DNA of 64,000 nucleotides from a virus: IMG/VR virus record IMGVR_UViG_3300036985_001643, positions 1 through 64,000 of that record. The stretch is one strand, 5' to 3'. The stretch's first letter is position 1; each line of letters begins with the position of its first letter. Made by a program: the position numbers and the translations under genes. Under the pieces are notes generated by a model. It was not told the DNA's origin. It ran no database searches and saw nothing but the letters and a program-made list of their open reading frames with translations. Below are positions 18,118 to 62,000 of the stretch, piece by piece.

Positions 18118-18181
18118 TTCAAGTTACTTATATATTTATAAACAAATAAATCGTAAATTAGCGATTAAATATTTTTGAGAT

Positions 18182-18535: not shown

Positions 18536-18537
18536 TT

Positions 18538-37678: not shown

Positions 37679-37693
37679 TTAATAATAAATATT

Positions 37694-43500: not shown

Positions 43501-46500
43501 ACTACTGTATTCTACGTACACGATAATGCTTGGTTTAGAGAAGAAAACCTTGACAATACACCTGATGCTATTGCTCAAGATAAAGCTAACAACTTTAAAA
43601 TCAGAGAACAAATAATCAAAAAAGGTAAAGTTACTACTAAAGTATCTTATAAAAGTTTTGGTCATTTATTCAGAGCTTACGATGGCTCTAAGATTACTAC
43701 TTCTGAAGCAATGCCAGATAGTGACTTAGCGTTATCTGTTTGTAAGAATGAATCTTTAGATTTTACAAAAGGTAAACTATTACCAACTACTTTACAAGAA
43801 GGTAGAACTTATGCAATAGTACCTGTAGGACCAGATACTTACTTACCTGTTCCTTTAGAAAGAGCTCCTATTACTCAAGAGATAGTTGATTCTATTATGA
43901 TTGCTGTAGAGGCTCACCTTTCAGGTGACACTGAGAATCCTGTTGTACAGGCTATCGGTAACTCTAACTTAGGCTTAGACATTACTACTACTGAAGGTTT
44001 AAATAAATATGTTCAACAATTTATCTACTTGTATCCTACAGAGAAACAAGAAGGTATTGAGAATCTTTTAATTAACCAAGGTGGTTCTAAAAGTACTTTG
44101 TCTTCTAGTAGACCTATTATTGCAATAACAGCAACAGGTATCGAGTTTGGTAAACCTGGTGTACAAATGGGTTCTTTTACTAATCAAGATGGTGTTAAAG
44201 TACAATCTTTTGCTGTAGTTCTTTCTAAGAACTTTAAGAAAGATGCTAAGACTACAAAAGGTTTAGCAGCGTTAAGAGCTATCTTAGAAAGTGGTAATAT
44301 ACTTTCTCATACTCGTTTAGAAAACTTACAAAAGAATCTTGACAGTGTTATCTTATTAGATAACCAAGGAGCTACTAGAACTATTAAGTACTCTCAACAA
44401 GTAAAAGATTCTACAGTTACTAATCTACGTTCTATTAATATAGGTACAGAGGAAGCACCTAAGTATGTGTATACTATACAACCTACTATTAAGTTTGATG
44501 TAGCGTTTGCTAAATTAGATAAAGTTAAAAAAGCTAGTTCTACTACTAAGAAAAAAGTTACTGTTCCTAAAGTTACTGTAACTCCTGTTGCTACTAAAAC
44601 TACTATTCCTGTTACTACTACAGTTGCTGTATTACAACCAAATGATCTTCAACTTAATGTATCTGCTACTACTAAAAAAGCAGGTATGGATTCTATTACA
44701 AAGCAAGATTCTAGCATAGAGTCATTTGATGAAAATAAGTTTATCAGAGTAACAAAAGCTAATGCAGATGATGTTAATGGTAAATATTATGCTATTGATA
44801 ATGGAGTACTAAGAATAAGAATTAATGGAAAAGATGCTGTTTCAGGCAGAACAGGAGGAGCAACCCAAATAAGTGTTAAAGTCCCAGTAGGATTTAATGA
44901 AAAAGTCTTTGCGGAAAAACTTAAAAACATAAGTCATAAAGACGGTGTTACTACTGATAAAGCTGTACAACAAGTTGTTAATGATGTTAGAAAAGCAATC
45001 ATAGAAGCACAATCAACTTCCGCAACTACTTCTACTATAGAAGCTAAGAAAGCTGATATAGAAAGAAGAAGACAGACAGGAACTAATGTTAGAGGTACAA
45101 CTTATAAAGGAGAAACTACTGAAAAAGATGAATTAAAAGTTACTAAGTATTCTGAGTTTTTTCCTGATGGAAAAAGGATCTCTAAAGGAGGTAGAATAAT
45201 GTTACCTGCTGAATTTATAGAAGAGTACAATATAACTGATCAAGATTATTTAGATAGTCTTGAAGGAGCTACAGAAATAAGAATATATGAAGTAAGAGTA
45301 GGAAAAGATGGTAGATCAGGTATAAGCATACAAGGAACTTTTCCAGAAGGAAACATAGAAACGGATGTTGCTGGTACAGAACTAACTGCTTTAAGTGAAA
45401 CTCGAGATGACATAGAAGCTCAAAAAGCTGATGTAGAAAGAAGAACTACAAAAGTAATATCTTCAGAAATTGTAGAAAAAGGGAACAGAAAAGGTCAAAC
45501 AAGAACAGTAACTCAAACTAATTCTATAAAAGATGTAGAAGGTACAATAGTAAGTGTAACAGAATATGAAGCAAAAGTTGGAGATACTACTATCACACTG
45601 GGAGGTAAATCAATGACTGTTAAAGAGTTCAAAGAAGAATTTCCATTAGATGAGGATTATGAAGAAATATTTGCAAGTTGGCCAGATTTAAATGATGATA
45701 CAATAATTACAGTAAGAAAAGTAAAAAGAACGCCTACTAACTCAAGGTATAAAACTGTTGTGAATATTTTCAACCCTGTGTTAGGGGGTGAGATGGATAT
45801 AACTATTAAAAAAGATGATACTAAATATGATGCAGAACTAGCTGCTTTAAAGCAACCTGTTGCTGGTAAACAAGTTCAGATAGATGATATAGAAAGAAGA
45901 CAAAGAGTGGCTGATATAATTACATCTCAGTTTGAATTAGGTGTTGAACTTCCAAAAATTTTAGAAACATTAGCTGAACAAGGTTATGTAGAAAAGATTA
46001 ATAATAGTGCATTTTTTAAACAAAGTGTTGGTAGAGATGCTATAGTTTTTAATATTGATGGTGCAATAGTACCTATATATAGAAGCTCAGAAGGAACAAG
46101 TAGTAAAACAAAAGGTAAGTGGTATCCTTTTTTCTTTAATGCAGGAGACTGGTTAGTTAAAGGAATGGCTGATAGTTATAAAGATGGTTACAATAATCCT
46201 ATTATTAAACAAATATTAAATAGTTTAAATACTAATTATACCTATGACAAACCAATTGCAAAAGTAAATGGTAACAATAAAGAGGTATTAGTATTATTAG
46301 GTCTTGAAGGATTTGATGAAGAAAATAATGGTATCTATGATTACCAAAATTATCTTGCAGCATCTATAGTATTAAAAGATTGGCAAAGTAAATTAGGTAA
46401 TATTGATGTGTCAGGTTATCAAGAGTATCTTGATGGTGCATTATCTGGGTTAATAAAAGCTAATCCAACTTTAAAATCAGAAATAGAAAGTGCATTTAAA

Positions 46501-49500
46501 ACTGCATCAGATAGTTTTGCAGAACTAGCTGCTTTAGAACAAAGCACAAGTGTTGTAAAAACTCAAAAAACAGAATTAGAGAAAGTAGAACAGGTTAAAG
46601 ATGTAGTAATAAATGGAGAAAAATATTCATATTATCCATTAGCTGTAAGCCAATCTTCAGGAGCATCTGTGTTAATAGCAAACAAAAAATCTATTTTAAT
46701 ATCAGACGATTATGGAAATATTTCTGAGTTAGAAACAGCTGAAGAAAAGATTACAGAAAACGATATTACAGCAGGTAATATTTTTTACATGACTGTAGAA
46801 AAAGGAGTTCCTAGAATTGTTTCAATAGAAGAAAGTTTACCTGAATTAGGTAATGAAAATGGTTTAAGAACTTATTCAATGAGAATAACTTCTTATGACG
46901 CAGGAGGATCAAAAGAAATAGAGTCAGGAATTGGTGATTTAGGAAAAATAAAATCATTAGAAAGTAGTATTGGTAAAAGTGATCTTAGTAAAAAAGAATT
47001 AGCTTCAGAGTTAAATAAACTAGGAGTAAAGAAATTAAAAGTAAAGCAAGGACTTATTGTACCTACAATACCTTCAATTACAAATCAAGGAAACTTTGAA
47101 GAAGATAATACTATTGAGTTACCTAACGATTTAAAGATAGATGCTGCTATTACTTTTACATCTAGTAATGTTTTTCAAAAAACTTTTAAATCTATAACTA
47201 CAGCAATTGTAGCAAGTAAGTTGCAATTTACTAAACCTGGTAGATTTATAACTAAAGAAGGAACTTTAACTAAAGAAGGTGAAGAAATATTAAAAAAATT
47301 AACTTCTACTGCTTCTCCTAAAAATTTAAGAGAGTTAGATGCTTTAATTTCTAGCAACTTAGATAAACAACTTTGGGAAAACGAAAAAGAAAATAGTATA
47401 AACTCTATTGTTTTAGACGCTATTACTCAAAATAAAAAAGTAGCTAATTCGTTATTAAGTACAGGAAGGGTAAAATTTAATTCTGAATATAGTAATGCAT
47501 TTGTTGCTACTAGAGAAACTATTAGAGCTAAAAACAAAGAAAATATACAACAGTCCTTTAATAATATTCCAAGTTTAAAAGAATTAAATTCTCCTGCTTT
47601 AGAACAAACTACAGAGCAAGTTATTGCTAACTCTCCTATTCCTTCTGCTGAACAGCAAGTTGAAGAAGCTATTGATCCTGAAACAATCATAGAACAAGAG
47701 GCTATTCAAATGTTAGCTGATCATACAATTGAAGAAATTAATGGATTCTTAGACAATATTAATATAGGTTTAATCACTGAAGAAGATTTACAAGGACAAT
47801 CTTTAGAACAAGTTAAACAAGCAATTAACAGAGCTAAAGAAATACATAAAAAGAATAGTGAGAAGAAAACAACTTTCCAATTTCCTGGAAAAAAGAGTAT
47901 TACCGTTGATGGTAACACTAAAGATTCTACGGATATCTCAGAGGATACTTTTGATTATTTAATTAGTCCTCTAAACGAAGAACAAGTAGACGAGTTAAAC
48001 GCTGAGGTTGAAGCAATGATTATTAGAGGTGTAGACTCTGAGACACAACGTTCTTTAATTGCTTATATATCTGCAGAGATTATTCAAAAAACTCTTGCTG
48101 AGAAAGAAGTAGGTGGAGCGAGAACAGTGAAGGTTAAAGATATAATGGATACCAATAAAGAATACTTTATTGCCTTAGCAGAGTACTACAAGGAAAACGG
48201 TTTACCTAACAAAGCTAAAAGATTAGAAGCTGTTGTAGAACAGTTTGATAAAGTAGATAGGTTAGTACAACAATACATGAGTCTTCTTACTACAGGTACA
48301 GTAACTTCTAAACCAAAAACAGAAAGTGAAGAATCAGTAGGATTAGAGAAGACTTTATACACTGATGATTGGGCGTTTACTATCGATTCTAAATCTACAG
48401 CTTCTGGAGATTTAAAGAAATTCTTTGCTAATATACAAGCACAGGATAAAGACGGATTAAAACAAAACAGTCTAGGGTTAGAAGAGATAATGCCTTTTGA
48501 TGCAGTATACGATACTCTTCACGAGATATTAGCTAACAAACCTGCTGACTATACAACAATGATGGAGATTCTTAAGTTGTATGCAGAGAATTTCCCTTGG
48601 ATAAACTCTGTAGTAGAATCTATAGAAAAAGCTCCTGAACGTATTAAAAACGAATTTGTTTCAGATATGGCTAAACACCATATAGAGATGTCGTTTGTAA
48701 TGTGGGAAAGAAACAAAAACGGTACTTATAACCTACAACGTTGGTCAAGTAACTCTGCATCTAAAGAGAATAGATTAAGAGCGATGTGGCAATCTAACTT
48801 AAGAGGTGTAGGTACTTCTAGTAACATTGTAGTAGTTAATGACGAAGACGAATACGTATTTGACCACGTAGTTGTAGATAGATTAATAACTCAAGCAGAG
48901 AAGTTTGCTGAGGATCCTTCTGTGGTTACTAACGATGATATTGCTAATTGGTTAGGTCAATTAGGTATTGTACTTGCTGATGACACTTACGATGACTTAC
49001 GTAACGGTTTATTCAACAATAAAGGTAAGAAAACCTTTAACCAATTATTTACTCATTCTCAAGGGTTATTTAAAGTACTTACTGCTAAATTAAAAACTAT
49101 CAGTAATGGTAGACCTAAACCAGGAAAACCTAATACTAACTTAGTAGATAACGCTAATTTAATGACGGATAGTGTTGTTAAAGCATTGGCTAAATTAGAC
49201 GCTACTAATAGTCTTAATACTTCTTCTAACTCTTTCCAATCGGGTGGTAAAACTGTTTACTCTTACGGTAACAATAACTACTTAGTAAACCGTATGAGAG
49301 ACTTAACGGCTCACAATGGAGAAAAGTTTATTAACGAAGAACTTATTAAGCATTTACAAGATACTTCTTTTACTAAAGATAGTTTATGGTTAAAAGATAT
49401 TACTTCTACAGATGCTTTAGGAGAAGCTGCTAGAAGAGAGTTAGGGTTAAACTACTTATCGTTAGAAGCGTTAAAGAAAAAGTTTACACCTTCTCAAGAT

Positions 49501-51450
49501 GATCGTAAACTAAACAACTTGACACCTGCAGAACACGAGGTAATTAAGTTAGGTTTATTCTTAAATAATTCTGGACAAACAATAGGTAAAGAAACTAGAC
49601 GTAGTGTACAATTCTTTTATCCTACAATGTCGGATAAAACTACTATGTTGAGTATCACTGCTTTAGCTAGAGAGTTAACACTTGAAGAAGGAGTAATATC
49701 TAAAGACAACATCAAGTTGTTATTTGATGCTTTAGTACAACCGGAAATTAATCGTATTAGAGATAAACAGGCTTCTGACATTAAAGGTTACGAACCAAAC
49801 TACTTTTACTTTCTTCCTGCTCTTAATACTCACCCTATTACTATTAATGGTAAAGAGAAAACAGTGTTAGACTTTGTTAAAGATAAAGACGATAGTATTT
49901 ACTCACAAGAGTTTAAAGATCAAGTAGAGGCTAAAATTAAAGAAACATACGAACAGTTAGTAGAAGACAAATTAAAAGACTGGAAAACTTTAGGTATTGG
50001 TAAAACAGTTAAAGACAATAAAGGAAGAGTATCTGAACAATATATGTTTTTAAATTCTTCTTACATGGCCGATGTAGCTAAAGGTATAGGAGAAGCTAAA
50101 GTTAAATATGCAGCAATGGATTACATATTTAACAGTTTAATAGCTAACTCTGAATCGTTTAAGTTATTTGCTGGAGATCCTGCGTTGTATGCTAAGTTTA
50201 AAAAAGATAAAACTTTACAACAAAACCTTGAAGAAACTTTTATCAATATTGGTAAACGTCTTGCTGGAGATATTGCTCCAGGTATAGAGTTAGCCAACAG
50301 TACTAACAATAAGTACCTTCAAGTATTCTTAGAAGATAAGGAGTTAAACAGTAACAATGTTAACGATTCTGTGCAGTTAGAGTACTTCTCTAAGATAATG
50401 AAGGACTATAAGAAAAACTATTCAGGGATAGAAGGATCGGATGCTCAAGAGTATACTACTTGGCAAGAACACATCTACGTAATGAAACAATTAGGTAGAA
50501 TTACAGATAACCAATTTGAAGTATTTAATCGTAAGTTGACTGCTCAAACAGATAAAGCTGCTAAAGGTATTCCTTTAAGCAAAGCTGATAAACTTACATA
50601 CGAAGAGTTAGGTTTAGTAATGCAACCTATCAAACCTGTATACGTAGGTAACATCGCTGTAACAGATGACAACGTAGACAGAAGAATCTATATTAAGTCT
50701 TCTAGTTTCCCATTGATTCCTGAGTTAACTGCAGGTCTACAAATAGAGAAAGTACGTAAAGCTATAGAAAAGTTTGAAAAAGAAGTAGGTGGTAATATAT
50801 CTTCAGATGGTAACCCTGCTTTTGTTAGAGCTTCTTTTGGTACAGCCAACAAAGTAGGAGCTGTTAAAAACGCAGTAAAACTATTTGATGATAATGGTAA
50901 CGTAAATGATAACTTAGAAATTAAAGAAGAAAACTCTTTAGTACTAAATCGTTCAAACTTCCGTATCCAACAAGACGTACCTTACAAAAGAGAAAAGAAC
51001 GAAATCAACGTAGGTTCTCAAGAGATGAAGTTATTGTTCGTTAACTTATTAGACGTACAAATCGATGAGAATCACACAGGGGAACAATTGTTAACTAGTT
51101 ACAATCAAGCATATAAAGAATTGTACGAATATGCTAACGAAAAATTAGCAGAAAGATTAGGATTAGTTACCGAGACTACTTCTACTCCAGAGTTAGTAAG
51201 TTTGTTAGAAACTCCTACAACTACTGCTGTTGCTGATACTCACGCATTAAAAGAATCTTTGAAAGGTAAATCTACTGTACAAAATGTAATAGCTAAACAA
51301 AAATTCTCTGAAGAAAAAGGTGAAAATACAATAGATAGAGTTAAATTTATAGACAAAAACTTTGACAAGATTGTAGCATCTTTACTTAAAGACGAGCAAA
51401 TTAAAGTCTTATTCCAAGACGAGAATAACCAAAATAAAAAATGTGAATAA
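40525..51450 (+). CDS. giant polyvalent virion protein: N-terminal membrane/ejection region, variable cassette array, and N-terminal (beta-like) half of the virion RNA polymerase
   Basis: Gly-rich hydrophobic helices near the N-terminus. The C-terminal ~1100 aa carry crAss vRNAP motifs PTMSDK, F.GDPA.Y, KR, DAQ.Y.T, QPIKPVY, IKSS.FPL.P, FRIQQ and GSQ..KL. Confidence 0.8.
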   Translation: MAKKKIVPPPPSPVRLQALSLDTKSDKTLGYNSDIIDEVGAGEEADSGVMQKHYAQKDANFFDPYEDYVDRKTLHGGQFDIEELNTIRATNQSNWEQAGHAVARVATNIVPQIISGFASMVDLPGYIDAEHAASNKIVNWAMDLKKEVDEDWFPIYEEKPGQSMSLSDPAWWMSRGSGLVESVGSFLAQGFGVGKVVSLGAKGIGSVLQGKKLFAALEAIPGVTSGANVAKRIGGATQSLTTAAMLNQSEAVIEATQVFNDTYKARLDEGWDYAKAKKAAAEAASTTMNLNRINILLNLSSATAFLKGQKYTRQLLKNPTLGHTSKELVKEGSQEAVEELINHVASKAGMAKGAEKNYTFENALNDIHSMEGLEAAFLGAIGGIAQTGGTKALEYSKYGPGSTTDESGVKISKVQDARNRYQQQQEVINELKDKGVKITDALNSVKEQLVFEEKLNAAYASGNVEEVKTLHAQMFENVAAKHFSAGTTEVLENLLKAESQKDPEEVGQDYIDRAKQAVKDLRTLENIYNNAEEYANVDEVYRNRASKLRAEKVVPEATTLQKESEFQLNQEVDAIAKKHMFDRERQVLIKKNGVVVDTETKTEKAPITYSLSDLENNTGDTDANKAVYEKFLAEVKALPSYESTNFYTEQLDALQKQIRDLDKDYKNITSDAYQKTAKAKAAEKTKVEQLTKDLPKVSTISEVEKMKESTTDKDFHKAADAKIEEIKKSNDAQAKQKKTQATVAELNTRIEKATEEELEGLLEEINNAELSQTHKTNLRNAYDRRASILNGTPVAVSPEEENPLGAFGFTNNNPNDTAEEIKREEESRATNLPKDLPNPKTETKDVEQQVADTATKLLETDTTRVTGQDTQGNLTYAYGKSTEGHNSGAVLSREFTQTENGGIVTREESTDDIENLQVLDPEVLQSGTPLIMEVDTDYIGPKYDPSSSTRETTSWVDRLAVLKAKAEQQGIPLTQLKEYIAEVPIKVTMEDGTTVFYVHDNAWFREENLDNTPDAIAQDKANNFKIREQIIKKGKVTTKVSYKSFGHLFRAYDGSKITTSEAMPDSDLALSVCKNESLDFTKGKLLPTTLQEGRTYAIVPVGPDTYLPVPLERAPITQEIVDSIMIAVEAHLSGDTENPVVQAIGNSNLGLDITTTEGLNKYVQQFIYLYPTEKQEGIENLLINQGGSKSTLSSSRPIIAITATGIEFGKPGVQMGSFTNQDGVKVQSFAVVLSKNFKKDAKTTKGLAALRAILESGNILSHTRLENLQKNLDSVILLDNQGATRTIKYSQQVKDSTVTNLRSINIGTEEAPKYVYTIQPTIKFDVAFAKLDKVKKASSTTKKKVTVPKVTVTPVATKTTIPVTTTVAVLQPNDLQLNVSATTKKAGMDSITKQDSSIESFDENKFIRVTKANADDVNGKYYAIDNGVLRIRINGKDAVSGRTGGATQISVKVPVGFNEKVFAEKLKNISHKDGVTTDKAVQQVVNDVRKAIIEAQSTSATTSTIEAKKADIERRRQTGTNVRGTTYKGETTEKDELKVTKYSEFFPDGKRISKGGRIMLPAEFIEEYNITDQDYLDSLEGATEIRIYEVRVGKDGRSGISIQGTFPEGNIETDVAGTELTALSETRDDIEAQKADVERRTTKVISSEIVEKGNRKGQTRTVTQTNSIKDVEGTIVSVTEYEAKVGDTTITLGGKSMTVKEFKEEFPLDEDYEEIFASWPDLNDDTIITVRKVKRTPTNSRYKTVVNIFNPVLGGEMDITIKKDDTKYDAELAALKQPVAGKQVQIDDIERRQRVADIITSQFELGVELPKILETLAEQGYVEKINNSAFFKQSVGRDAIVFNIDGAIVPIYRSSEGTSSKTKGKWYPFFFNAGDWLVKGMADSYKDGYNNPIIKQILNSLNTNYTYDKPIAKVNGNNKEVLVLLGLEGFDEENNGIYDYQNYLAASIVLKDWQSKLGNIDVSGYQEYLDGALSGLIKANPTLKSEIESAFKTASDSFAELAALEQSTSVVKTQKTELEKVEQVKDVVINGEKYSYYPLAVSQSSGASVLIANKKSILISDDYGNISELETAEEKITENDITAGNIFYMTVEKGVPRIVSIEESLPELGNENGLRTYSMRITSYDAGGSKEIESGIGDLGKIKSLESSIGKSDLSKKELASELNKLGVKKLKVKQGLIVPTIPSITNQGNFEEDNTIELPNDLKIDAAITFTSSNVFQKTFKSITTAIVASKLQFTKPGRFITKEGTLTKEGEEILKKLTSTASPKNLRELDALISSNLDKQLWENEKENSINSIVLDAITQNKKVANSLLSTGRVKFNSEYSNAFVATRETIRAKNKENIQQSFNNIPSLKELNSPALEQTTEQVIANSPIPSAEQQVEEAIDPETIIEQEAIQMLADHTIEEINGFLDNINIGLITEEDLQGQSLEQVKQAINRAKEIHKKNSEKKTTFQFPGKKSITVDGNTKDSTDISEDTFDYLISPLNEEQVDELNAEVEAMIIRGVDSETQRSLIAYISAEIIQKTLAEKEVGGARTVKVKDIMDTNKEYFIALAEYYKENGLPNKAKRLEAVVEQFDKVDRLVQQYMSLLTTGTVTSKPKTESEESVGLEKTLYTDDWAFTIDSKSTASGDLKKFFANIQAQDKDGLKQNSLGLEEIMPFDAVYDTLHEILANKPADYTTMMEILKLYAENFPWINSVVESIEKAPERIKNEFVSDMAKHHIEMSFVMWERNKNGTYNLQRWSSNSASKENRLRAMWQSNLRGVGTSSNIVVVNDEDEYVFDHVVVDRLITQAEKFAEDPSVVTNDDIANWLGQLGIVLADDTYDDLRNGLFNNKGKKTFNQLFTHSQGLFKVLTAKLKTISNGRPKPGKPNTNLVDNANLMTDSVVKALAKLDATNSLNTSSNSFQSGGKTVYSYGNNNYLVNRMRDLTAHNGEKFINEELIKHLQDTSFTKDSLWLKDITSTDALGEAARRELGLNYLSLEALKKKFTPSQDDRKLNNLTPAEHEVIKLGLFLNNSGQTIGKETRRSVQFFYPTMSDKTTMLSITALARELTLEEGVISKDNIKLLFDALVQPEINRIRDKQASDIKGYEPNYFYFLPALNTHPITINGKEKTVLDFVKDKDDSIYSQEFKDQVEAKIKETYEQLVEDKLKDWKTLGIGKTVKDNKGRVSEQYMFLNSSYMADVAKGIGEAKVKYAAMDYIFNSLIANSESFKLFAGDPALYAKFKKDKTLQQNLEETFINIGKRLAGDIAPGIELANSTNNKYLQVFLEDKELNSNNVNDSVQLEYFSKIMKDYKKNYSGIEGSDAQEYTTWQEHIYVMKQLGRITDNQFEVFNRKLTAQTDKAAKGIPLSKADKLTYEELGLVMQPIKPVYVGNIAVTDDNVDRRIYIKSSSFPLIPELTAGLQIEKVRKAIEKFEKEVGGNISSDGNPAFVRASFGTANKVGAVKNAVKLFDDNGNVNDNLEIKEENSLVLNRSNFRIQQDVPYKREKNEINVGSQEMKLLFVNLLDVQIDENHTGEQLLTSYNQAYKELYEYANEKLAERLGLVTETTSTPELVSLLETPTTTAVADTHALKESLKGKSTVQNVIAKQKFSEEKGENTIDRVKFIDKNFDKIVASLLKDEQIKVLFQDENNQNKKCE
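45037..46542 (+). repeat. dispersed in-frame linker repeats (IEAKKADIERR and AELAAL)
   Basis: ATAGAAGCT.A.AAAGCTGAT.TAGAAAGAAGA at 45037 and 45412, with a partial copy at 45886. GCAGAACTAGCTGCTTTA at ~45832 and 46519, with a variant at ~45379. Confidence 0.85.
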
Positions 51451-51923
51451 TGGAAAAATTACTTACTGACGTAGAGCAAAAAGAATTAAATAAGTTTGGT
51501 AAATTAGAGTTAACAGCTTCACAAGCTTACTTACACCTTACTAATAGAATGAAGACATTGGGTTACTTTGGTGCAGAGAAGTTCTTTGCAGGTGAATCTA
51601 ACGATGAAAGAGAGCACTATGCTAAACATGAAGACTTTATGAACAAGTTTAATTGTGAATTAAGTGTTGAAGCATTGAGCCCTATTGCTTCTGATGTTAG
51701 TAACATTAAAGAAGCTTTAGAAATGGCTTACCAAATGGAGGTAGACTTATTAAACGAGTACGAAAAGTCTTGTAAACTTCCAGAGTTATCAATAAAAGTT
51801 GTACTTTTGTTACAAGAGTTTGTTGAAATACAAAGTGGTGCAGTTGGAGAATACGGAGATCTATTAGCTAGATTAACTCTAACAGACAACATGTTATTAT
51901 TCGATCAAGAACTAGGAAACTAA
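51450..51923 (+). CDS. ferritin-like protein
   Basis: 157 aa with EL.AS..Y, G...FF..ES.DE..H, AL..A...E and F...Q motifs of the ferritin four-helix bundle. It has a TAATG overlap with the upstream gene. Confidence 0.85.
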   Translation: MEKLLTDVEQKELNKFGKLELTASQAYLHLTNRMKTLGYFGAEKFFAGESNDEREHYAKHEDFMNKFNCELSVEALSPIASDVSNIKEALEMAYQMEVDLLNEYEKSCKLPELSIKVVLLLQEFVEIQSGAVGEYGDLLARLTLTDNMLLFDQELGN

Positions 51924-51933
51924 AAGTACAATT

Positions 51934-54900
51934 ATGGCTTGTCAATATTTTGTAAACGGAGAATGGATCTCTGAGGAACAGTTTAAAGAAGTTTTAAACA
52001 ATGGTTTATTAGATAATTTAGTAGCCAACGGTACTGTTAAAGAAGAAGGATTTCCCGTAGATAATACTAAACTCCTTAAAACTGAGACAGTTACTACTAC
52101 TAAAACAACTGTACCTGTAGAAAAACTAGCAGCAATCTTAGCAAAAGAAGTGAGTACTCGTTCAGGGTATCCATTAAACATGTTAAGTGCTCTAGAGTTG
52201 AAAGAAGACAAGTCAGACTTTAAAATTCCTTTATGGGCTTCTCCTTACGCAAGTAAGTTTGAGTCTTTATTAACTTCTTTAGTAAGTAATAAAGTAGTTA
52301 AACAAAAGTTTGCTGGTACATCAAGTGTATTAGGTTCGGAAGAAGGGTTTAGAATTAAACAAGGTGACGAAGCAGCAGGTAGTTTAAAGGACTCCTCTAT
52401 TGTATTTTCAGACAACTTTGATCCTGAGAAAGGTTTACAACCGATGAGGGTAGATCCTAAAACAGGTAAAATATTACCTGCTCAAATAATGTTACCTTTT
52501 AAGTTTAGAGACGAGTCAGGTAACATATTGTTTATCAACGATTTCCTTAAATTAGATTCTTCAGGAAGACCTTTAAGAACTCCAGACGGAAGAGTAACTA
52601 TTGACGATAGTAAATTACCTGCTAAATTAAGACAGTTATTTGGTTTCCGTATTCCTACACAGGAGCGTAACTCTATGGCTGCTGTAGAAATAGTAGGGTT
52701 TTTACCTGAAGCAATGGGAGATTTAGTACTAGCTCCTAGAGATTTTACTAAACAGATGGGTTCGGATTTTGACGTTGATAAGTTGTACAGTTACTTGTAT
52801 AACCACTTCTATAAAGACGGTAAATTATACACTAATTTCCCAAGTGATAAGAAGACTATTAAAAAACTAACAGATGCTGCTAAAGAACATTTAGCTACAT
52901 TGAAAAGTTCTTTAAAACTAAATAGTGCAGAACAAGCATTGTTAAATGCTTACATTGATAACAAGTTAGAAAAAAACGATGATAACGATCAAGACGAGTT
53001 GCTTACTAAAGCTACTACTCTTATCGCTAGACTTACTAATTCTCCAATAATGGAGGAGATAGAAAACGTTACTAACGATTTATCTATTTACAACAGAGCT
53101 TACAAAGCTTCTCGTCAAAATAAAATATTAGACATTCACTTATCAGTGATGTTGAGTAATAACCCTGAGGTTATTAAATCTATTATTGCATTAGATTCCT
53201 TTGGAGATTTTGAGCAATTAGCTCAAGACTTATATAAAGTAAGAAGTGAGCGAGGTTTAATTCCTCCTATTACCACTATTCTTTCAGATACTTATCAAAG
53301 AACTAAATACATTAACGCTACAGCAGGTAAAACTGGGGTAGGTTCTTTCTCTTTAGATTCTACTTTTAATGCATCTGCTCAAGGTAAAGAGTTGACCATC
53401 ATCAATATGGACGATGAGACTCAAACAAATGTATTTGGTACCCCTATAGAACCTAAGAATCCTACTGCTGCTGAAGTATTAGAAGCTAATATGACTGTTG
53501 CTGCTTTTGGAACTAACGTTTCTAAAGGAGATTTATCAGACAAATATACACTACGTTCTAGAAACTTAATCAACAAAGCTAAAGAAGAAGGTAGAGAACT
53601 TACAGAGGAAGAAAAAGATTCTTTAAAGATGAAGTCTACTATTATTAGATCTTTACAATCTACAGCTGTGGATAATGAAAAAGCTCAAATATTAGATAAA
53701 CTTAACATCAACGATCAAACTATGGATGCTGTTAGAGCCCTTACTATATTAGGGTTTGAAGAGAAAGAAATAGTAGGATTGATAACACAAGAGATTATTT
53801 GGGAGTTTACTGCAGCATTAAAGGATAACGGTTCTTCACTGACTCCTTTCCAAGCTAACGCTGCAGAAACTTTATTTATTGATTTAGTAAAGAAATACGA
53901 TCCTGAAGGTAAACTAGCAGAATTAAAACCTTACGAATTAGAAGCTTTACAAAGTGCTACTAGTGAGTCATTAATGAGTGACATCAATACTCAAACGTTA
54001 CAAGAGTTAAGCGTAGGACCAACACCAGATGCTAATCTTAGACAGTTAGCTGCTTTAGCTAAATTCCTTAAACTTACTCAAATAGGTAAAGATATTAAGA
54101 CCTTACAGTCTACTATAAATACTGATTCTAAAGGTGTTCCTAAATCTTTAGTAGAAACAGATGCTAAAGTAAAACAAATAGAAAGGTTAGCTGCTTCTAA
54201 CATCTTTAATGCTACTAAGTTGTTAGGAGAATATGAAGGATCTAAATTAGTTACACCTACTACTCTAAATGGTTTTGCTTCTAAATACGGTACTATGTTT
54301 GCAGATACTATCTACAAACAATATTTCCCTTATCATACTACAGGTTTTAAAGTATTAGTAGATGAGTTACTACAATATATACCTAAAGGTAAAAATGCTT
54401 CGTTAACTAAACAAGCAGAGTTACAATTAGAGTTAATGGACGCTGTTAAGTCTTTCCTTTATGGTAATGCTAATACAAACTTGTTTACAGAAAACCCTGA
54501 TAGTGAACGTGCTAGATTGTTTATAGACACTAAAACTAACAAAAGTTTAGCTACTATACTACAGTCAGTTTCTGAAGAAAAGTGGTATACTTCTAATGGT
54601 TTCCTTAATAAGTTATCGTTAGACCAACAAAAGAATGGTCAAGTTTCTAGAGTAAACTTCGAATCTGCTTCAGGAGAAAACTTAGACGAAAGAGATATCT
54701 ATGACGGGTTTAACTACTTGTTATCTAAGAATTTCCCTATTGGTACTTTTAACGGTATCGATTATACTTCTCGTATGTTGGCTCAAGATTTAGTAGCTTC
54801 AGCGTTCTTAGAAGGAGGTCAACAAGGTTCTAAACAATACTTGAAGTATGTACCTACTGCTTACCTTAAAACTATAGGTTTTGGAGATTACTTATCAAAT

Positions 54901-57900
54901 ACTTCTTTTAATTACCTTGATACTTTCTTAGGTAATTTAAGCCCTGAAGGACAGTTAATGTATAACAATCCTTCTAGTTTTATGAGACAATACTTCCAAA
55001 ATAATGCTGATAAAGCTAAAAAGGTATCGTTGTCTGACTTACAAGGTAAAATATCAGCTGTTCCTGAAGGATACTTTACACTAAACGAAGAAGCTCTAAA
55101 GGACAATATAGTAGAGATTACGGATCCTTACACAGGTGAACCAACTACTACACAGACTAAGTTCTTATCTATCTATGATAGTAAAGTACCAGGTAAGTAT
55201 GCATTATTCGAGTTTGACGCTGTAGATAGATTGTACCGTAGAATACCTACTTTACAAGGTTCTTTCGGTTTTGTATCGTATAACTCACAAGTTGGTACAC
55301 CGTTACCTATTGAAAAAGCTAACAGAACTGTTAAACAAGAAGGTAACCAAGAAATACCAGGTTATACTTTACCTCATACACCTACTACTCCTACAAAGTC
55401 TTTTGATGTAAACGTGGTTAACAATACTGTTAAACCAGTAACTGCTAATACTTTACCTATTTCAAAAACATTGTCTGGTACTAAAGAAGCACTAGACGAT
55501 TTAATTAATAATATACAATTTGAAGACGGAGTATCTAGTTTAAACAGACAGTTGTTAAGTTCTTTAAGAGATTTACAATTACCTGATAACTTTAAAGTAG
55601 TGTATGATGATACTTTAAGTAGTAGAGGAGGTTATAGTTATGACAAACAAATATTGTTTATTAACTTAAAACATGAAGCTAATCAAAATATTGACGGTTT
55701 AGCTACCGCTGTTGCTCACGAATTAATACATGCTTTAACAAGTGAGGCTATTTATGAATACCAAAAAGGTGATTTAAGTAAGTTAACAGCTGACCAAATT
55801 AAAGCTATTGAGTCTTTAAAAGCTTTACAAGATAAGTATATTGATCATTTAAAAACTAAAGGTGAAGCAGGTGCTTTACAAGCATTTAAAGATAAATATG
55901 AAGCTTGGGTAGCACGAGGTAAAACAGGAAAAGTAGGAGTTTCTGCAGAAGATATTTCTAAGTTTTATGCAGGTATTAAACTATCAGAGTTTGTTACTAT
56001 GACTCTTAGTGATCCAGGTTTTCAACAACATCTAGCTTCTGTTATCGATGAGTCAGGAAAATCTCTTTGGGAACAAATTAAAGAAGTTTTAGGAGAATTG
56101 TTAAATACTTTAGGTTTAGATATTAAACCAGGTTCTGCTTTAGCATCTGCTGTAAAAAGCTCTATGGATTTAATTACTGCTAACCAACAAGCAATGGGTA
56201 CTAAATTATTTGTTACTAAAATTGATCAATTTAACTACTCTTACGATGCTGTTAATAACGTTGTTATCCACAATGCTAAAACAGGTGATAAAGTAGAAAC
56301 TAACGATACACAAATTAATAAGGTATTAGTACAATATGCATTAGCTAATAATAAGGAACAACGTGTGTTTAATGGTTCTACTTATGTTGCTATTGCTGAT
56401 AGAATATTAAACATTAAAAACGCTAACGAAGTAAGTCTAGAAACTTGGGAGTCTGCTAAATCTACTAAGCCATCTACTAGTATTAAACCTACAATAGATA
56501 CATCAAGAGAATGGAAAGGTGATTTAGAATCAAGACCTGTCTATACTTCTGAAGGAGTTAATACTATGAGAACTACTTCTGCTAAAGCTGATGAACATTT
56601 TGGTAATCCGTTTAGTGAAGCAGGCTATGGTAATACTATAAAAGTAGCTAGCATAGGTGCGGCTGTCAGAATGTATAAGGATTGGTTATTAAACAATGCT
56701 GTAACTGAATCAGAAATTGTAAAAGGAAATGTTAGTGACTTAGCTAAATTTGATAACCAAAGAGCTTGGATACTTAATCAAATTAATCAAGGTAAACTTG
56801 ATGGAGCTACATTGCTTTATGCTGGTAAATCTGAAGCAAGAGGTCAAGGTATGCACCCTACAGCATTAGCTGAAGTAGTAGAACAATTAAGAAGTAAATC
56901 AACTCAACCATCTACTCAACAACAAACTCCAGTAAGTGAAGTTAAAGAAGGTGTGCAAGAAATATTTGAATCTAATCCTGAATTAGCTAATATAGGTACA
57001 CCTGAACAATACTCTCAATATCTTGATACTATATTTCCTGATAGTAAAGTAAAAGATATTCTTTATCATGGTACAGCTTCTCCTAACACTATTGAGAAAT
57101 TACAACCTCAAAATGATAGAATATACTTTAGTGATAATCTTACAGCTGCAAGATATGCTAGTTGGGATCAAGATAATAGAGTACAATTTGAACCAGGTTC
57201 TCAAACAAAGTTACAAGTAATACCTGCTATTATAAATTTAACAAATCCTGTAAAATTATCAGACGTTAACTTTAAAGAAACAGAGACTAATAAAGAAGGA
57301 GACGGTATTATTGGTACTAATATAGAAGATCCATTAGGAGGTAGAGAAAATCAAATAGTAGTAAGAAATGCTGATCAAGTTTATGAATTAGGTACTAAAC
57401 AAGATTTAGAAGGATTTAAAAAGTTTATTGCTAAAGATACTAAATACGAACTATTCCCAGGTGTATATGCTAATCAAGGTCAAACAGAAGCTTTAGATAA
57501 GTTAACAGATTTCTTAAGCTCTGATAAACAAGCATTCTTACTACAAGGAAAAGGTGGTACAGGTAAAACTACTATTATTAAAAAGATTGTTAAAGAAGCT
57601 CAAGCTCAAGGTAACAGTGTATTAGCAATTGCTCCTACTCATAAAGCTAAAAAAGTATTAGCTAAATCATTAAACGATCCAGGTATTAAGTCTACTACTT
57701 TAGCAGCTGCTTTAGCTATTAAACTTGATGAAACTACAGGTAAATTTACACCTGATGAGTTTGCTAGAAAAATGGATAAAGTTCCTATTACAAAAACATC
57801 TTTAGTAATTATTGATGAGTCTTCTATGATTTCTGATAAACTATTAGAAGAGATTAAAGAGTTACTACCTAAAGGTACTAAGATTATTTTTATGGGAGAT

Positions 57901-59031: not shown

Positions 59032-59041
59032 AGAAGACAGT

Positions 59042-62000
59042 ATGAGTGCAGCAACATGTATCAATAAAAATACCCCAGAGTATAAAGCATTGCTAAGTCA
59101 AGTAGGAAGCGAAAGACTAGCAGTGTTAGCTATATTAAACAATGGTTACGAAGTACCAGATGTACGACCTATTACAGAGATTAAGAATGCTATCAAGTTT
59201 AAATCTGAGGTAGAAAACTTTGCAGGTATTGCTGCTAACTTAAGAAGATATAATACTAAAAATAATACTTCCCACTACTTTACTTTTACTAAAGCTTTTG
59301 GTAATACGTTTAAACTAGAGTTGAAGTATAACTACTTACCTGTTGACTTAGAAAGACAACGTCAGCGTAAAGCTAGACAAGGTGATCCTATGTATATGGT
59401 GGTAGGGTTTAATCAACAAGGTTTTAACCAAGTGTATCCTAACAATAATAGACAAAGTAACCTTTTTGAAGGAGCTATTACAGGTAAAGAAACACCTACT
59501 ACATCTACTTCTACTATAGAGGAAGAAAGAGATTTAGGTTTTTACAATGGTGATGCTGCATTACTAGAACAAGAATCTAGAGACATGGATTTCTTAATAG
59601 AAGGTTCAGGAAAGAAAGTAGTTGACTTAGAAAAACGTAGAGAAAGAAAGATTAATGACGAGATTATTAAGCAACGTCAGTTACTAAAAAATGTAACAGA
59701 TGCTGATTCTCTACGTTCGATTATTAATAAGATTGAGGGACTAAGAAAACAATTAGACCAAGCTGAAGGAAGAGTAGTTGTAGCACAAAACATTAATGCG
59801 TTTGAGGACGTATTACAATTTGGTAATTCTCAAGTTAATGAGATACAAAAATTACTTAGCAATCCTGCAGTTAGTTACGAAGATGTTTATTATGCTCAAA
59901 AAGTATTAAACCTTTGGTTAAAAGCAGGTGACTTCTCAACACCAAGTGAGGAACATATTTTCCTAGACGAATACGAGTTTAATACTCCAGAAATACGTAG
60001 TGCTTTTAGAGAGATAGCTTCTAAAGCATCGGACTTACAAAGTCACTTAACAACACTTAAAACTAACTATGTATCTAACTTTGTTAGACAGTACACAGAT
60101 GGTAAATTAAGTAAAGAAGAAATCTTTAAGCATTTAAAACAAGTTGGTAAAATAGGTACTACTACCTTAAACTTATCTCGTCACGATGACGCAATGTTAC
60201 AAGCTATCTTCTCTGCGGTAGAACAAGCAAATATGAATGCTAAGTTAGAAGCAGGAGAAGTATGGGAAAAACTAGATGTATTATCTAAAGCTTTCTTAAA
60301 GAAATCAGGAGGTAATTTTGATATACTTAAACAAGTAGACGAGAACGGTTTAGAAACAGGTAGAGCAGTATCTAGATTTGCTACTAGTTTCTACGAGACT
60401 AGAAACCAATTGATGAAGAATGCTTTCTGGTCCAGAGACGCTGTTACGGGTAAGTTAAAAAAAAATGATGCCGGTGTAAAAGCTTATTATGATTGGATTA
60501 ATAAGAATACAGCATCTTTTGATCCTAGAATATTGCTCCCTGATAGTAACCTAGAAGACGGAGTTATTCCTGAAAGTGCACTATATAAGAGAGTTAAGTT
60601 TGACGAAGGTTCTAGACAAAAACATATTGCCGAATTAAAGTCTCACTTAGGAGAAAAAGGTTACGAGTACTACATTAAAAGAGTAGAAGCTAAGATAGAG
60701 AAGTTTAAGATTCGTAGAGAAGTAGCTTATTCTTCTATTCAATTAGAAGAAGGACTATCTCAACAAGAGAAAGACAGTTTGTTTGATACTTGGCAAAAAG
60801 AACATTCTCCTTATTGGGGTATGGATATGGCAGAAAACCCTGTTAGTAGAAGAAAAGGTAAAGATTCTTTCTATTCTCCTAAAGGTATTAGAGAATACGT
60901 AGAACAAGTTCCTAAGAAAACTGTAGACGGTGTTACTACTAAGTGGTACGATCAAAACTTTGCTAAGATAGAAGCTGACGAAGATTTATTAGCTTACCAT
61001 TCTTTCATGATGGAAACGTTAAATACCTTACGCTATACTCTTCCTCAACAGAAACAAGCATTATTAGGAGTAGGTGTATTACCTACTATCCAAAAAAGCT
61101 TAATGGATATCTTTCAGGAAAAAGGAGTAATGATGGGTATAGTTCCTTTTTGGGACAAAATGAAACAGTTGCAAACTACTACAGATTTTGCTACTACTGT
61201 ACACTCTGACGTTGATTCTTTTACAGGTGATATTGAAAAAAATATTCAACTACAATTTATCGAAGATACTAGTGCTAAAGTTCGAGAAATAGTAAAAGAA
61301 AAAACTATAGCTCATAAACAAGCAACTGGGAAACCAGCTACTACAGCAGAGATAAACCAATTTACTGCTGAAGCTAGAGACTTCTTATCAAAAAATAAGT
61401 CTTGGGATATCACTAAGATCTTAAAAGCATACTCTTTAACAGTATTGGCCCACAAACACAAATCTTTTATAGAACCTCAAATACGTCTTGCTGAACAAGC
61501 GTTTAAGAGTCGTAAACAATTGGTTACCAATAAAGCAGGTGAAGTACAGAAGGATGTTCAAGGTAACGTATTAGTACAAGAAGGTAACGATAACCTTAAA
61601 TCTGCATTAGAGTTTTTCCTAGATTCTGAATATTGGGGTGTAGGAGGACGTAAAGTAGAAGGTGTTACTAAAACTAAGTTATACACTAAAGAAGAAACTG
61701 CCCACAAGAAAGAGTTAGAAGCTTTACTTGCTGAAGCTACTACAGATGAGGATAAACAATTCCTACAAGATCGTATTGATTCTCTAGGAGGTTTCCGTAC
61801 TATGAGTGGTGTAGGAGATGCAGCTTTAAAGTATATGACACTTAAAGGTTTAGGGTGGAACTTTTTCTCAGCATTTTCTAATATTGGTTTTGGTGCTATT
61901 TCTAATATTATCCAAGCTTCGGACGGTAGAGAATACTCAGCTAAACACTTAAGAGACGCTTATTTACTTGTTACTAATTCTATAGGTAGAAACGCTTCCT

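What the first reader, a model, noticed from the sequence alone, without database searches (positions are those of the whole stretch)
51150..52120. Virion RNAP split by an apparent insert: docking tail, ferritin gene, docking head
Seen: beta-like motifs (DAQ, QPIKP, IKSS, FRIQQ, GSQ) end at ..EKLAERLGL, and RNAP-like sequence resumes at VEKLAAILAKEVSTRSGY in the next large ORF. Between them lie a Thr-rich linker, a ~50-aa tail (..RVKFIDKNFDKIVASLL..KKCE*), a complete ferritin gene, a ~30-aa head (MACQYFVNGEWISEEQFKEVL) and a second Thr-rich linker. Established: phi14:2 gp66 is a single-chain vRNAP, and split versions occur in other crAss-like phages. Inference: the tail/head pair is a portable split-and-rejoin adaptor with no intein motifs. 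It would let the enzyme be broken in a surface loop and let a passenger gene occupy the gap.
Basis: partly seen in the sequence, partly recalled or inferred. Interest (0 to 1): 0.75.

Follow-up and report, generated by a model that had tools for sequence, protein, structure and literature searches.

The report
Portable cysteine-tipped cassette splits phage polymerase
The giant virion RNA polymerase of an uncultured crAss-like phage is cut in two by a small exchangeable DNA cassette that adds matching cysteine-tipped end-pieces and often a ferritin gene, and the same end-pieces flank different cut sites in other phages, which points to a natural cut-and-relink kit for proteins.

Summary
ORF A (40525-51450) ends with the beta-like half of a gp66-type virion RNAP. 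ORF B (51934-59031) starts with the beta'-like half, which carries DFDVD. Unsplit relatives (FpV4 gp32 and 62 viral contigs) run straight through this point with a loop of about 5-10 residues. That point lies inside the Connector domain of phi14:2 gp66.

The window adds a Thr-rich linker, a helical tail of about 70 aa ending KKCE, a ferritin gene, a head of about 47 aa starting MAC, and a second Thr-rich linker.

HMMs built only from this clade find the same tail and head as adjacent pairs at another breakpoint, about 1,400 aa upstream of the RNAP core. That second clade has cargo proteins only 24-29% identical to the window's, yet its ferritin is 68-76% identical. A third context also carries the head. 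The ferritin is optional: 8 of 17 junctions in the second clade, and locus L152, lack it.

Tail and head each carry a conserved terminal Cys. This is a general rule: 65 of 71 junctions between almost Cys-free giant cargo ORFs have such a pair, as do phi14:2, crAss001 and FpV4.

Physical docking and disulfide relinking are inferred, not shown. The closest precedent is the mobE-split NrdA of phage Aeh1.

The parts
40525..51450 (+). ORF A (3641 aa): giant cargo protein. Its C-terminal part is the beta-like half of the virion RNAP. It has only two Cys (1073 and 3640).
49903..51171 (+). A residues 3127-3549: beta-like DPBB region plus the first part of the Connector. This is the last stretch homologous to unsplit RNAPs (gp66 788-1127; FpV4 gp32 up to residue 2886).
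51172..51243 (+). Thr-rich linker (A residues ~3550-3573), absent from unsplit relatives.
   Evidence: low pLDDT
51244..51447 (+). Tail module TAIL1 (A residues ~3574-3641). It is predicted helical, has a conserved N-F-D-x-I motif, and has an invariant Cys at 51442-51444, one residue before the end.
51450..51923 (+). Ferritin-like gene (157 aa), translationally coupled to ORF A (TAATG). The ferroxidase-type residues E20, Y27, E53, H56, E97 and Q128 are conserved. It is an optional passenger.
51934..52074 (+). Head module HEAD1 (B residues 1-47): Cys3 (51940-51942), a predicted beta-hairpin, then helices carrying the invariant G-L-L-D motif.
52075..52110 (+). Second Thr-rich linker (B residues 48-59).
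52111..52890 (+). RNAP homology resumes (B ~60-319, equivalent to gp66 1162-1407). This is the rest of the Connector and the beta'-like DPBB, with DFDVD at 52765-52779.
51349..52039 (+). DNA unit shared at 68-74% nucleotide identity with a distantly related phage clade: the end of the tail, the ferritin gene and the first ~30 head codons. No other nucleotide similarity was found in 49000-54500 apart from two short stretches of 78-100 nt at 52651-52787 (L088, L095).
51934..59031 (+). ORF B (2365 aa): beta'-like RNAP half, zincin-like region and Dda-like helicase. It has only two Cys (3 and 2364).
59023..59059 (+). Second junction of the same kind, between B and C. B Cys2364 is penultimate, a 10-nt gap follows, and C has Cys6. 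The head here is of a different type (type 2).

Best explanation
An exchangeable cassette sits in a short loop of the Connector domain that joins the two catalytic barrels of a single-chain crAss-type virion RNA polymerase. The cassette consists of linker + TAIL1 + stop, an optional ferritin gene, then start + HEAD1 + linker. It turns the enzyme into a beta-like polypeptide (end of ORF A) and a beta'-like polypeptide (start of ORF B).

Shown: TAIL1 and HEAD1 are a cognate, portable pair of terminal modules. The same pair flanks a different breakpoint in a distantly related phage clade, and the head occurs in a third context. The core of the cassette is exchanged between phage lineages as DNA.

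Inferred: the helical tail and the hairpin-helix head dock to each other, so that the two halves are assembled and packaged together. Docking brings the penultimate Cys of A next to Cys3 of B. In the oxidising extracellular virion these two form a disulfide, which relinks A and B almost end to end. B is linked to C in the same way. The chain can then be threaded through the tail as one quasi-linear polyprotein and released by reduction in the host cytoplasm.

The ferritin is most likely a true di-iron ferritin carried as a passenger. It is co-expressed with the late cargo genes and is not part of the chain.
For: Split and extra modules:
- The break lies within gp66 residues 1128-1161, inside the Connector (1095-1238, preprint 10.1101/2020.03.07.982082).

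Conservation:
- 109 of 120 listed B homologues (55-100% id) start with HEAD1 and carry Cys at position 3-4.
- The head has 14 invariant positions and the tail has 8, including the Cys.

Portability:
- A head profile searched against 1.84e9 representative proteins gave 81 hits, 78 of them at the N-terminus.
- These fall into three architectures: beta' barrel at about residue 60; beta' barrel at about residue 1800-2200; and proteins unrelated to A, B or C.
- TAIL1 HMM hits lie at the last residues of the ORF preceding HEAD1 in clade 2.
- In clade 2 the Connector is continuous. For example, in L084 the beta-like region ends at 1858 and the beta' region starts at 1861.

Cassette exchange:
- Ferritin is 68-76% identical between clades, whereas the cargo proteins are 24-29% identical.
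- In the ferritin ML tree the two clades are intermixed, with at least 3 switches forced by well-supported branches.
- Shared DNA is limited to window 51349-52039.

Ferritin is optional:
- 9 of 17 clade-2 junctions have it and 8 of 17 lack it.
- L152, a connector break, lacks it.

Cysteine rule:
- 65 of 71 non-redundant junctions between ORFs of at least 1000 aa have a tail Cys (last 4 residues) and a head Cys (first 6 residues).
- Internal Cys frequency is 0.026% in giant ORFs and 1.58% in other ORFs.
- Eight of the 23 ORFs of 4,500 aa or more (up to 7315 aa) have no Cys at all.
- The pattern holds in cultured phages phi14:2, crAss001 and FpV4.
- The first chain member lacks a head Cys and the last lacks a tail Cys.
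- Disulfides are seen in the crAss001 virion (PMC10172136).
- Ferritins have ordinary Cys content, so they are probably not threaded cargo.
Against: - No experiment or complex prediction shows that tail binds head. Only monomer AF2 was possible, and confidence was modest (pLDDT 68 and 61).
- There is no charge complementarity; both modules are acidic.
- Outside the two main clades, tails are much more variable than heads. Seven clade-2 HEAD1 proteins follow tails that do not match TAIL1 at E<1e-3.
- The cytoplasm where assembly occurs is reducing, so any disulfide must form late.
- The RNAP halves might reassociate through their native barrel interface without help.
- The mechanism by which the cassette moves is unknown. 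There is no nuclease or integrase in it and there are no flanking repeats.
Confidence: 0.6

Rival explanations
1. Neutral fission. Insertion of the ferritin gene simply broke the gene. The tail and head are tolerated leftovers or linkers with no binding role, and the two RNAP halves reassemble through their native barrel interface, as beta and beta' do in cellular RNAPs.
For: Cellular RNAPs have the two barrels on separate subunits. In Aeh1 NrdA the tails were not needed for heterodimer formation (PMC3045599). The monomer AF2 models are of only modest confidence.
Against: Tail and head are under clear purifying selection, with invariant Cys, G-L-L-D and N-F-D motifs. Between clades they are more conserved than the flanking enzyme: 40-54% against 24-29%. 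They persist where ferritin is absent. They recur as a pair at another breakpoint.
Confidence: 0.12
2. Independent signals. Head and tail do not bind each other. Each is a capsid-targeting, portal-binding or ejection-order signal that every separate cargo polypeptide needs, and the terminal Cys serve another partner such as a capsid or portal protein or a metal.
For: The head is strictly N-terminal in 78 of 81 representatives and sits on unrelated proteins. T4 internal proteins use N-terminal capsid-targeting sequences (established knowledge). Tails preceding HEAD1 are heterogeneous.
Against: The number and placement of Cys fit pairwise head-to-tail links. The first protein has only a tail Cys, middle proteins have both, the last has only a head Cys, and eight very large single ORFs (up to 7,315 aa) have none. 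TAIL1 was never found in front of a non-HEAD1 head.
Confidence: 0.15
3. Ferritin-centred assembly. Tail and head both dock onto the ferritin oligomer encoded between them, and the ferritin acts as the hub joining the halves (or as a local oxidant source for disulfide formation).
For: A ferritin gene lies exactly between a Cys-tail and HEAD1 in three contexts, and between a Cys-tail and heads of other types elsewhere (13 window-clade loci, 9 clade-2 loci, L149, L021, L112). It is translationally coupled to ORF A. Its ferroxidase residues are conserved.
Against: 8 of 17 clade-2 junctions and L152 have tail abutting head with no ferritin in the locus. Most Cys junctions in other phages have no ferritin.
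Confidence: 0.06
4. Translational bypass. The matched Cys codons are take-off and landing sites for ribosome hopping (as in T4 gene 60), so the ORFs are translated as one chain.
For: Matched codons flank short gaps that begin with a stop codon. Most junction gaps run from -4 to +35 nt.
Against: At this junction the gap holds a 474-nt conserved, translated gene. Other junction gaps hold genes of 0.5-1.5 kb. crAss001 gp47 obeys the Cys rule although it is encoded on the opposite strand from gp50 and gp49. The residues after the tail Cys and before the head Cys are conserved. Exclusive use of Cys in Cys-free proteins points to thiol chemistry, not codon matching.
Confidence: 0.03

Closest known systems
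Aeromonas phage Aeh1 nrdA split by the mobE homing endonuclease gene, with insertion-derived C- and N-terminal tails that are essential for activity (Crona et al. 2011, PMC3045599)
   Same: An essential phage enzyme gene is cut into two ORFs by inserted DNA carrying a free-standing gene. New sequences at the created C- and N-termini are absent from unsplit homologues and compensate for the split without RNA or protein splicing.
   Different: The Aeh1 tails are a single case with no known relatives. Here the tail/head pair is a sequence family that recurs at different breakpoints and on different proteins. It carries a conserved Cys on each side. The gene in the gap is a ferritin (optional), not a nuclease. 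The host proteins are virion cargo that must be threaded through a tail.
phi14:2 gp66 single-chain two-barrel virion RNAP, and the multi-protein RNAP sets of other crassviruses (crAss001 gp47/gp49/gp50)
   Same: Both halves are homologous to gp66, a DFDxD motif is present, and the genes lie in a late cargo block. The terminal Cys pattern is also present in gp078/gp66/gp076 and gp47/gp50/gp49.
   Different: gp66 has both barrels in one chain. Here the chain is cut inside the Connector. The published descriptions read for this report do not mention terminal cysteines or docking modules.
Docking domains of modular polyketide and non-ribosomal peptide synthases
   Same: Both use short complementary C- and N-terminal modules, set off by flexible linkers, that order separate giant polypeptides into a defined chain and can be swapped between junctions.
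   Different: There is no sequence relationship (Pfam gives nothing). A covalent Cys-Cys link is proposed here. The biological setting is different, namely phage cargo ejection.
Split inteins
   Same: A host protein is encoded in two ORFs with added terminal segments, and there is a Cys next to the junction.
   Different: There are no Hint or intein motifs, and the Cys lies at the far end of the tail rather than at its start. No HN-Cys motif ends the head. The added segments would stay in the product. True inteins do occur elsewhere in B homologues (P0105, P0106).

Membership tests
crAss-type two-barrel virion RNAP (phi14:2 gp66 family) | Sequence homology to gp66 on both sides of the active centre | tested here: met
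   A 3127-3510 aligns to gp66 788-1127 (E 5.6e-18). B 48-319 aligns to gp66 1162-1407 (E 4e-14). tblastn results are.
crAss-type two-barrel virion RNAP (phi14:2 gp66 family) | DFDxD metal-binding motif in the beta'-like barrel | tested here: met
   DFDVD lies at B 278-282 and is invariant in 22 homologues.
crAss-type two-barrel virion RNAP (phi14:2 gp66 family) | Both barrels and the Connector in one polypeptide | tested here: not met
   The chain is cut inside the Connector, with a stop at 51448-51450 and a restart at 51934.
crAss-type two-barrel virion RNAP (phi14:2 gp66 family) | Packaged in the virion and active as an RNAP | not testable with these tools
   This is an uncultured IMG/VR contig.
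Ferritin (Pfam PF00210) | Profile match above the curated threshold | tested here: met
   41.2 bits against a cutoff of 24.5, E 2e-10.
Ferritin (Pfam PF00210) | Di-iron ferroxidase ligands (E, Y, ExxH, E, Q) | tested here: met
   These residues align with the ferritin motifs and are conserved in the 11 clade sequences.
Ferritin (Pfam PF00210) | 24-mer cage and iron storage | not testable with these tools
   No experiment or oligomer model was possible.
Gene split by mobile DNA with compensating interaction tails (Aeh1 nrdA/mobE type) | Split relative to unsplit homologues, with unique sequence at the new termini | tested here: met
Gene split by mobile DNA with compensating interaction tails (Aeh1 nrdA/mobE type) | The inserted ORF is a homing endonuclease | tested here: not met
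   The ORF in the gap is a ferritin. A GIY-YIG gene does occupy a similar Cys junction in L042.
Gene split by mobile DNA with compensating interaction tails (Aeh1 nrdA/mobE type) | Tails required for assembly or activity | not testable with these tools
   This needs biochemistry. Only monomer folds could be run.
Split intein | Hint-fold blocks: a nucleophile at the first residue of the N-terminal piece, and terminal HN followed by C/S/T at the end of the C-terminal piece | tested here: not met
   Pfam finds nothing in tail or head at E<=0.1. The tail Cys is penultimate, and the head begins M-A-C and ends in a Thr-rich linker.
Programmed translational bypass (T4 gene 60 type) | A short non-coding gap between matched take-off and landing codons | tested here: not met
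   The gap is 483 nt and holds a conserved translated gene. crAss001 partners are on opposite strands.

The most novel reading that the evidence does not exclude
Crassvirales-like phages join their ejected cargo proteins head to tail through terminal disulfides, positioned by interchangeable docking modules. Separate giant ORFs then behave as one 'virtual polyprotein' that is packaged, threaded through the tail in a fixed order, and unlinked by reduction in the host. The TAIL1-(ferritin)-HEAD1 unit is a mobile cassette that can cut such a protein at new sites without loss of function and can carry passenger genes. It would act as a splicing-free counterpart of introns and inteins.
Probability: 0.4. 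Interest if true: 0.9.

Novelty: new variant of a known kind. Interest (0 to 1): 0.8.

Why it matters
(1) The finding gives a concrete, testable answer to an open question in the crassvirus structural work: how the large cargo proteins are ordered and co-delivered through a narrow tail. The terminal-Cys rule can be tested at once in cultured phi14:2, FpV4 and crAss001.

(2) It turns a single curiosity, the Aeh1 NrdA tails, into a recurring and transferable module family. It shows how giant phage genes tolerate fission and gene insertion without introns or inteins.

(3) It explains why cargo gene blocks show so many different fusion and fission patterns across crAss-like phages, which matters for their annotation.

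(4) Small natural tail/head pairs with a built-in redox-reversible link could serve as protein-assembly tags.

(5) It places a conserved ferritin in the late cargo operon of several aquatic phage lineages. The role of that ferritin is unknown.

Tried and rejected
Genomic contexts were therefore obtained with the search for related loci.
- A single-protein scan with the C-terminus of A found nothing.
- The word-based search with the tail found only 4 close relatives.
- PDB sequence and profile searches with the RNAP halves, the tail and the head gave nothing significant.
- Pfam gave nothing for tail or head.
- The ESM Atlas gave no usable hit for the head.
- GenBank phages hold no relative of this ferritin.
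- A split intein was rejected because there are no motifs and the Cys placement is wrong.
- Translational bypass was considered and rejected (see rivals).
- There is no charge complementarity between tail and head; both are acidic.
- The insert has no flanking direct or inverted repeats, no terminator, and promoter-like sites only at chance level.
- L042 and L052 were compared as a possible recent split/unsplit pair with a GIY-YIG gene in the gap. The proteins are mosaic and too diverged for a clean comparison.
- A profile of the first ~1,240 residues of clade-2 RNAP proteins finds no counterpart in ORF A, so the equivalent of the clade-2 breakpoint cannot be mapped onto A.
- The contig of P0111/P0112 was not retrieved. 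These are B homologues whose connector break carries a type-2 head instead of HEAD1.
- The tail HMM outside the two main clades gives only weak hits (L066 E 2.9e-4 in a small database). Pairwise shuffle tests for L021 and L066 were only modest for the tails (p 0.0085 and 0.021) and for the L021 head (p 0.0015); no shuffle reached the L066 head score.

Full report
**What is in the window.** The window is the first 64 kb of a 79-kb IMG/VR viral contig. Its GC content is about 33%. Four co-directional ORFs fill 40525-63181: A (3641 aa), a 157-aa ORF, B (2365 aa) and C (1379 aa). A's TAA (51448-51450) overlaps the ATG of the small ORF by one base. B starts 10 nt after the small ORF's stop. No terminator lies in 50900-52400 and promoter-like sites are at chance level, so the three genes are most simply co-transcribed. 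The small ORF matches Pfam Ferritin above threshold (E 2e-10). B also carries a C-terminal Dda-like SF1 helicase.

**The split is real.**
- PHROG 16227, a 4401-position 'virion structural protein' profile, matches A 3298-3550 at positions 2749-2993 and B 62-1039 at positions 3003-4005.
- The nearest cultured relatives are Flavobacterium phage FpV4 and its kin, and more distantly Cellulophaga phage phi14:2.
- FpV4 gp32 is a single 4287-aa chain. A 2623-3549 aligns to its residues 1899-2886 and B 62-1414 to 2897-4217.
- The experimentally characterised phi14:2 vRNAP is the 2180-aa product annotated gp077 in the record, called gp66 in the literature. It aligns A 3127-3510 to residues 788-1127 and B 48-319 to residues 1162-1407.
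- B carries DFDVD at residues 278-282.
- According to the gp66 structure paper, residues 1095-1238 form the Connector between the two double-psi beta-barrels. The break therefore lies inside the Connector, where cellular RNAPs have separate beta and beta' subunits.
- In unsplit relative L017 the junction is a loop of about five residues between two conserved segments. The window's extra material sits exactly there.

**Anatomy of the insert.** After the last conserved residues (..RLGLVT, ending at nt 51171) come five elements:
- a Thr-rich linker;
- a tail of about 70 aa ending K-K-C-E;
- the ferritin gene;
- a head of about 47 aa starting M-A-C;
- a second Thr-rich linker, after which RNAP homology resumes at about B residue 60.

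AF2 with 11-sequence alignments gave modest confidence in both cases, and only monomers could be folded. The tail is predicted as four helices with a disordered last seven residues that hold the Cys (mean pLDDT 68). The head is predicted as a beta-hairpin at residues 4-13 followed by helices at 14-31 (pLDDT about 70-77 over the first 30 residues). Neither module matches Pfam, PDB sequences or the ESM Atlas.

**The arrangement is conserved in a large clade.** A search with B 1-300 found 589 relatives. Of the best 120, 109 begin with the same head and carry Cys at position 3 or 4. A few longer proteins (3744-4034 aa, 50-60% identical) are unsplit and lack both modules and the junction Cys. Among 78 related viral contigs, 62 are unsplit at this site and 12 are split exactly as in the window. 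All 12 carry tail, ferritin (59-73% identical) and head. The head alignment has 14 invariant positions, including Cys3 and a G-L-L-D motif. The tail alignment has 8, including the Cys and an N-F-D-x-I motif.

The head profile was searched against 1.84 billion representative proteins. It gave 81 hits at E<=1e-3, and 78 of them start at the protein's own N-terminus, always with Cys at position 3-6. The hits fall into three architectures:
- B-like proteins, with the beta' barrel starting near residue 60;
- proteins of 3000-3700 aa, with the beta' barrel at about residue 1800-2200;
- proteins of 1100-1800 aa with no detectable similarity to A, B or C.

Contexts of the second class were fetched. 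In these contigs the whole RNAP core is one chain. In L084, for example, the beta-like region ends at residue 1858 and the beta' region starts at 1861. The head sits about 1,400 residues upstream of the core. The preceding ORF ends in a Cys. In seven loci it matches the tail HMM at its very last residues (E 2.6e-16 to 4.6e-6), although that HMM was built only from the window's clade. Four more loci give weak matches.

A third context is L149. There a 1622-aa ORF ends in a Cys and is followed by a homologous ferritin and then a HEAD1 protein. The pair therefore recurs at another breakpoint, and the refuting outcome did not occur.

**The cassette moves as DNA, and the ferritin is optional.**
- Between the window and clade 2 the cargo proteins are 24-29% identical, but the ferritin is 68-76% identical. 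That is as high as within the window's own clade (60-73%). The head is 40-54% identical.
- An ML tree of 27 ferritins intermixes the two clades. At least three switches are forced by well-supported branches.
- blastn finds 68-74% nucleotide identity only over window 51349/51432 to 52020/52039. This covers the end of the tail, the ferritin and about 30 head codons. Nothing else matches in 49000-54500 apart from two 78-100-nt stretches at 52651-52787 (L088, L095).
- In clade 2, 9 of 17 junctions have the ferritin and 8 do not.
- In metagenome contig L152, which belongs to the window's clade and has the connector break, the tail abuts the head with no ferritin.
- Ferritin-like genes also sit at cargo junctions in L021, L026, L055, L089, L106 and L112. 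A GIY-YIG endonuclease gene occupies such a junction in L042.
- No nuclease, integrase or flanking repeat is associated with the window's cassette. The conserved tail and head codons could serve as recombination arms, but that is inference.

**The cysteines.** I tested this.
- A has 2 Cys (1073 and 3640), B has 2 (3 and 2364) and C has 1 (6).
- The two cargo-like ORFs upstream of A have none. Other ORFs of the window have 0.2-5% Cys.
- Across the 78 contigs, 65 of 71 non-redundant junctions between ORFs of at least 1000 aa have a Cys in the last four residues upstream and a Cys in the first six residues downstream.
- Internal Cys frequency in giant ORFs is 0.026%, against 1.58% in other ORFs of the same loci.
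- Eight of the 23 ORFs of 4,500 aa or more (up to 7315 aa) have no Cys at all.
- The rule holds in cultured phages. In phi14:2, gp078 has a single Cys as its last residue, gp66 has Cys3 and Cys2179 only, and gp076 has Cys3 only. In FpV4, gp32 has Cys4286 of 4287 and gp33 has Cys3.
- In crAss001, gp47 has Cys2339 of 2341, gp50 has Cys5 and Cys2404, and gp49 has Cys5, even though gp47 is encoded on the opposite strand.
- The first chain member never has a head Cys and the last never has a tail Cys.

This topology is what pairwise head-to-tail links predict. The crAss001 virion structure shows disulfides between tail proteins and proposes that cargo is extruded partly unfolded, in an order set by packing and mutual interactions (PMC10172136). 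None of the papers read mentions terminal cysteines of cargo proteins.

**Mechanism, and what is shown versus inferred.**

Shown:
- the split and its position in the Connector;
- the extra modules and their conservation;
- their recurrence as a pair at another breakpoint and of the head in three architectures;
- exchange of the cassette core between lineages;
- the optional presence of the ferritin;
- the terminal-Cys rule.

Inferred:
- tail and head dock to each other;
- their Cys residues form a disulfide in the virion, relinking A to B (and B to C) almost end to end, so that the set can be packaged together and threaded as one chain;
- reduction in the cytoplasm frees the parts, and the RNAP halves then assemble through their barrels.

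Arguments against are the lack of any binding evidence, the modest monomer models, the absence of charge complementarity, heterogeneous tails in front of some HEAD1 proteins, and the reducing cytoplasm during assembly. The ferritin keeps its di-iron ligands and has ordinary Cys content. I therefore read it as a co-expressed passenger enzyme and not as a link in the chain. Its benefit to the phage is unknown.

**Rivals.** Four were weighed:
- neutral fission with functionless leftovers;
- head and tail as independent packaging or ejection signals;
- a ferritin hub;
- gene-60-like ribosome hopping between matched Cys codons.

The last is excluded here by the 483-nt gap that holds a translated gene, and more generally by the crAss001 strand arrangement. 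The ferritin hub is weakened by the ferritin-less junctions. Neutral fission is weakened by the cross-clade conservation of the modules. The independent-signal model is weakened mainly by the Cys topology and by TAIL1 never preceding another head type.

**Comparison with the known.** The closest precedent is phage Aeh1 nrdA. It is split by the mobE endonuclease gene, and insertion-derived tails are essential for activity. The authors suggested that this might be a general way to neutralise gene fragmentation (PMC3045599). The present case shares that logic but differs in four ways:
- the modules form a recurring, transferable family;
- each module carries a conserved Cys;
- the passenger is a ferritin and is optional;
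- the hosts are threaded virion cargo.

In function the modules resemble PKS/NRPS docking domains, without sequence similarity. It is not a split intein. I therefore class it as a new variant of a known kind. The broader reading, a disulfide-linked cargo train with portable junction modules, would be categorically new if confirmed.

**Verdict.** Binding and covalent relinking remain to be tested, and this can be done directly in cultured relatives.

Noticed in passing
window 59023-59059; loci L004-L147 generally: There is a second family of junction modules (type 2). Here an upstream tail ending ..L-L-I-C-G-K is followed by a head with Cys at 4-6 and then an N-K-N-S-x-E-W-K-like helix. It is used at the window's B-to-C junction and at many other junctions. 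Head types are swapped between equivalent junctions in different phages; for example, L061 and L066 use a HEAD1-like head at the last junction.
   Followed up: partly
L089:6085-6951: A 288-aa ORF consists of a type-2 head at its N-terminus and a TAIL1 at its C-terminus (E 2.6e-16). It lies between a ferritin-like gene and a HEAD1 RNAP protein, and looks like a stand-alone link or adaptor protein.
   Followed up: no
P0111, P0112 (B homologues, 2267 and 2287 aa): The connector break is present, but the N-terminus carries a type-2 head plus extra domains instead of HEAD1. This suggests module replacement at the same breakpoint. The contig could not be fetched.
   Followed up: partly
L042:16720-17400 and 19394-20119: Two GIY-YIG/NUMOD3 homing-endonuclease genes are present. 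One lies in the gap between a Cys-tail and a HEAD1-like head. The other is inserted near the 5' end of the next gene, which restarts downstream.
   Followed up: partly
P0105, P0106; L029:10001-15208: Some B homologues carry intein/LAGLIDADG Pfam domains (PF05204, PF05203, PF14528) and a cluster of internal Cys. Classical inteins therefore coexist with the splicing-free junctions in the same protein family.
   Followed up: no
L008:562-6234 and 6238-9501: The A homologue is interrupted by a single in-frame stop, with no Cys, tail or head at that point. It is probably a sequencing error, a recent nonsense mutation or readthrough, and serves as a contrast to the organised junctions.
   Followed up: no
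L082 (crAss001) 1119-8144 (+) versus 8433-19723 (-): crAss001 gp47 has its only Cys three residues from the C-terminus, although the presumed partners gp50 (Cys5) and gp49 (Cys5) are encoded on the opposite strand. The Cys rule therefore acts at the protein level.
   Followed up: yes
window 51450-51923 and homologues: Two ferritin C-terminal variants exist, a short one and one with an acidic extension of about 9 aa. Both occur in both phage clades, which is consistent with repeated exchange. Other, more distant ferritin-like genes (PHROG 16594 type) sit at cargo junctions that lack Cys pairs (L026, L055).
   Followed up: partly
window 15215-15820 and 17101-18117; L148, L149 downstream ORFs: Small, very Cys-rich ORFs (3.5-5.5% Cys, with CxC runs) lie in the structural region. 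This is a sharp contrast with the Cys-free cargo proteins.
   Followed up: no
window 33254-40486: Two further large ORFs just upstream of A (1474 and 930 aa) contain no Cys at all. They are likely additional cargo proteins that are not part of the Cys-linked chain.
   Followed up: no
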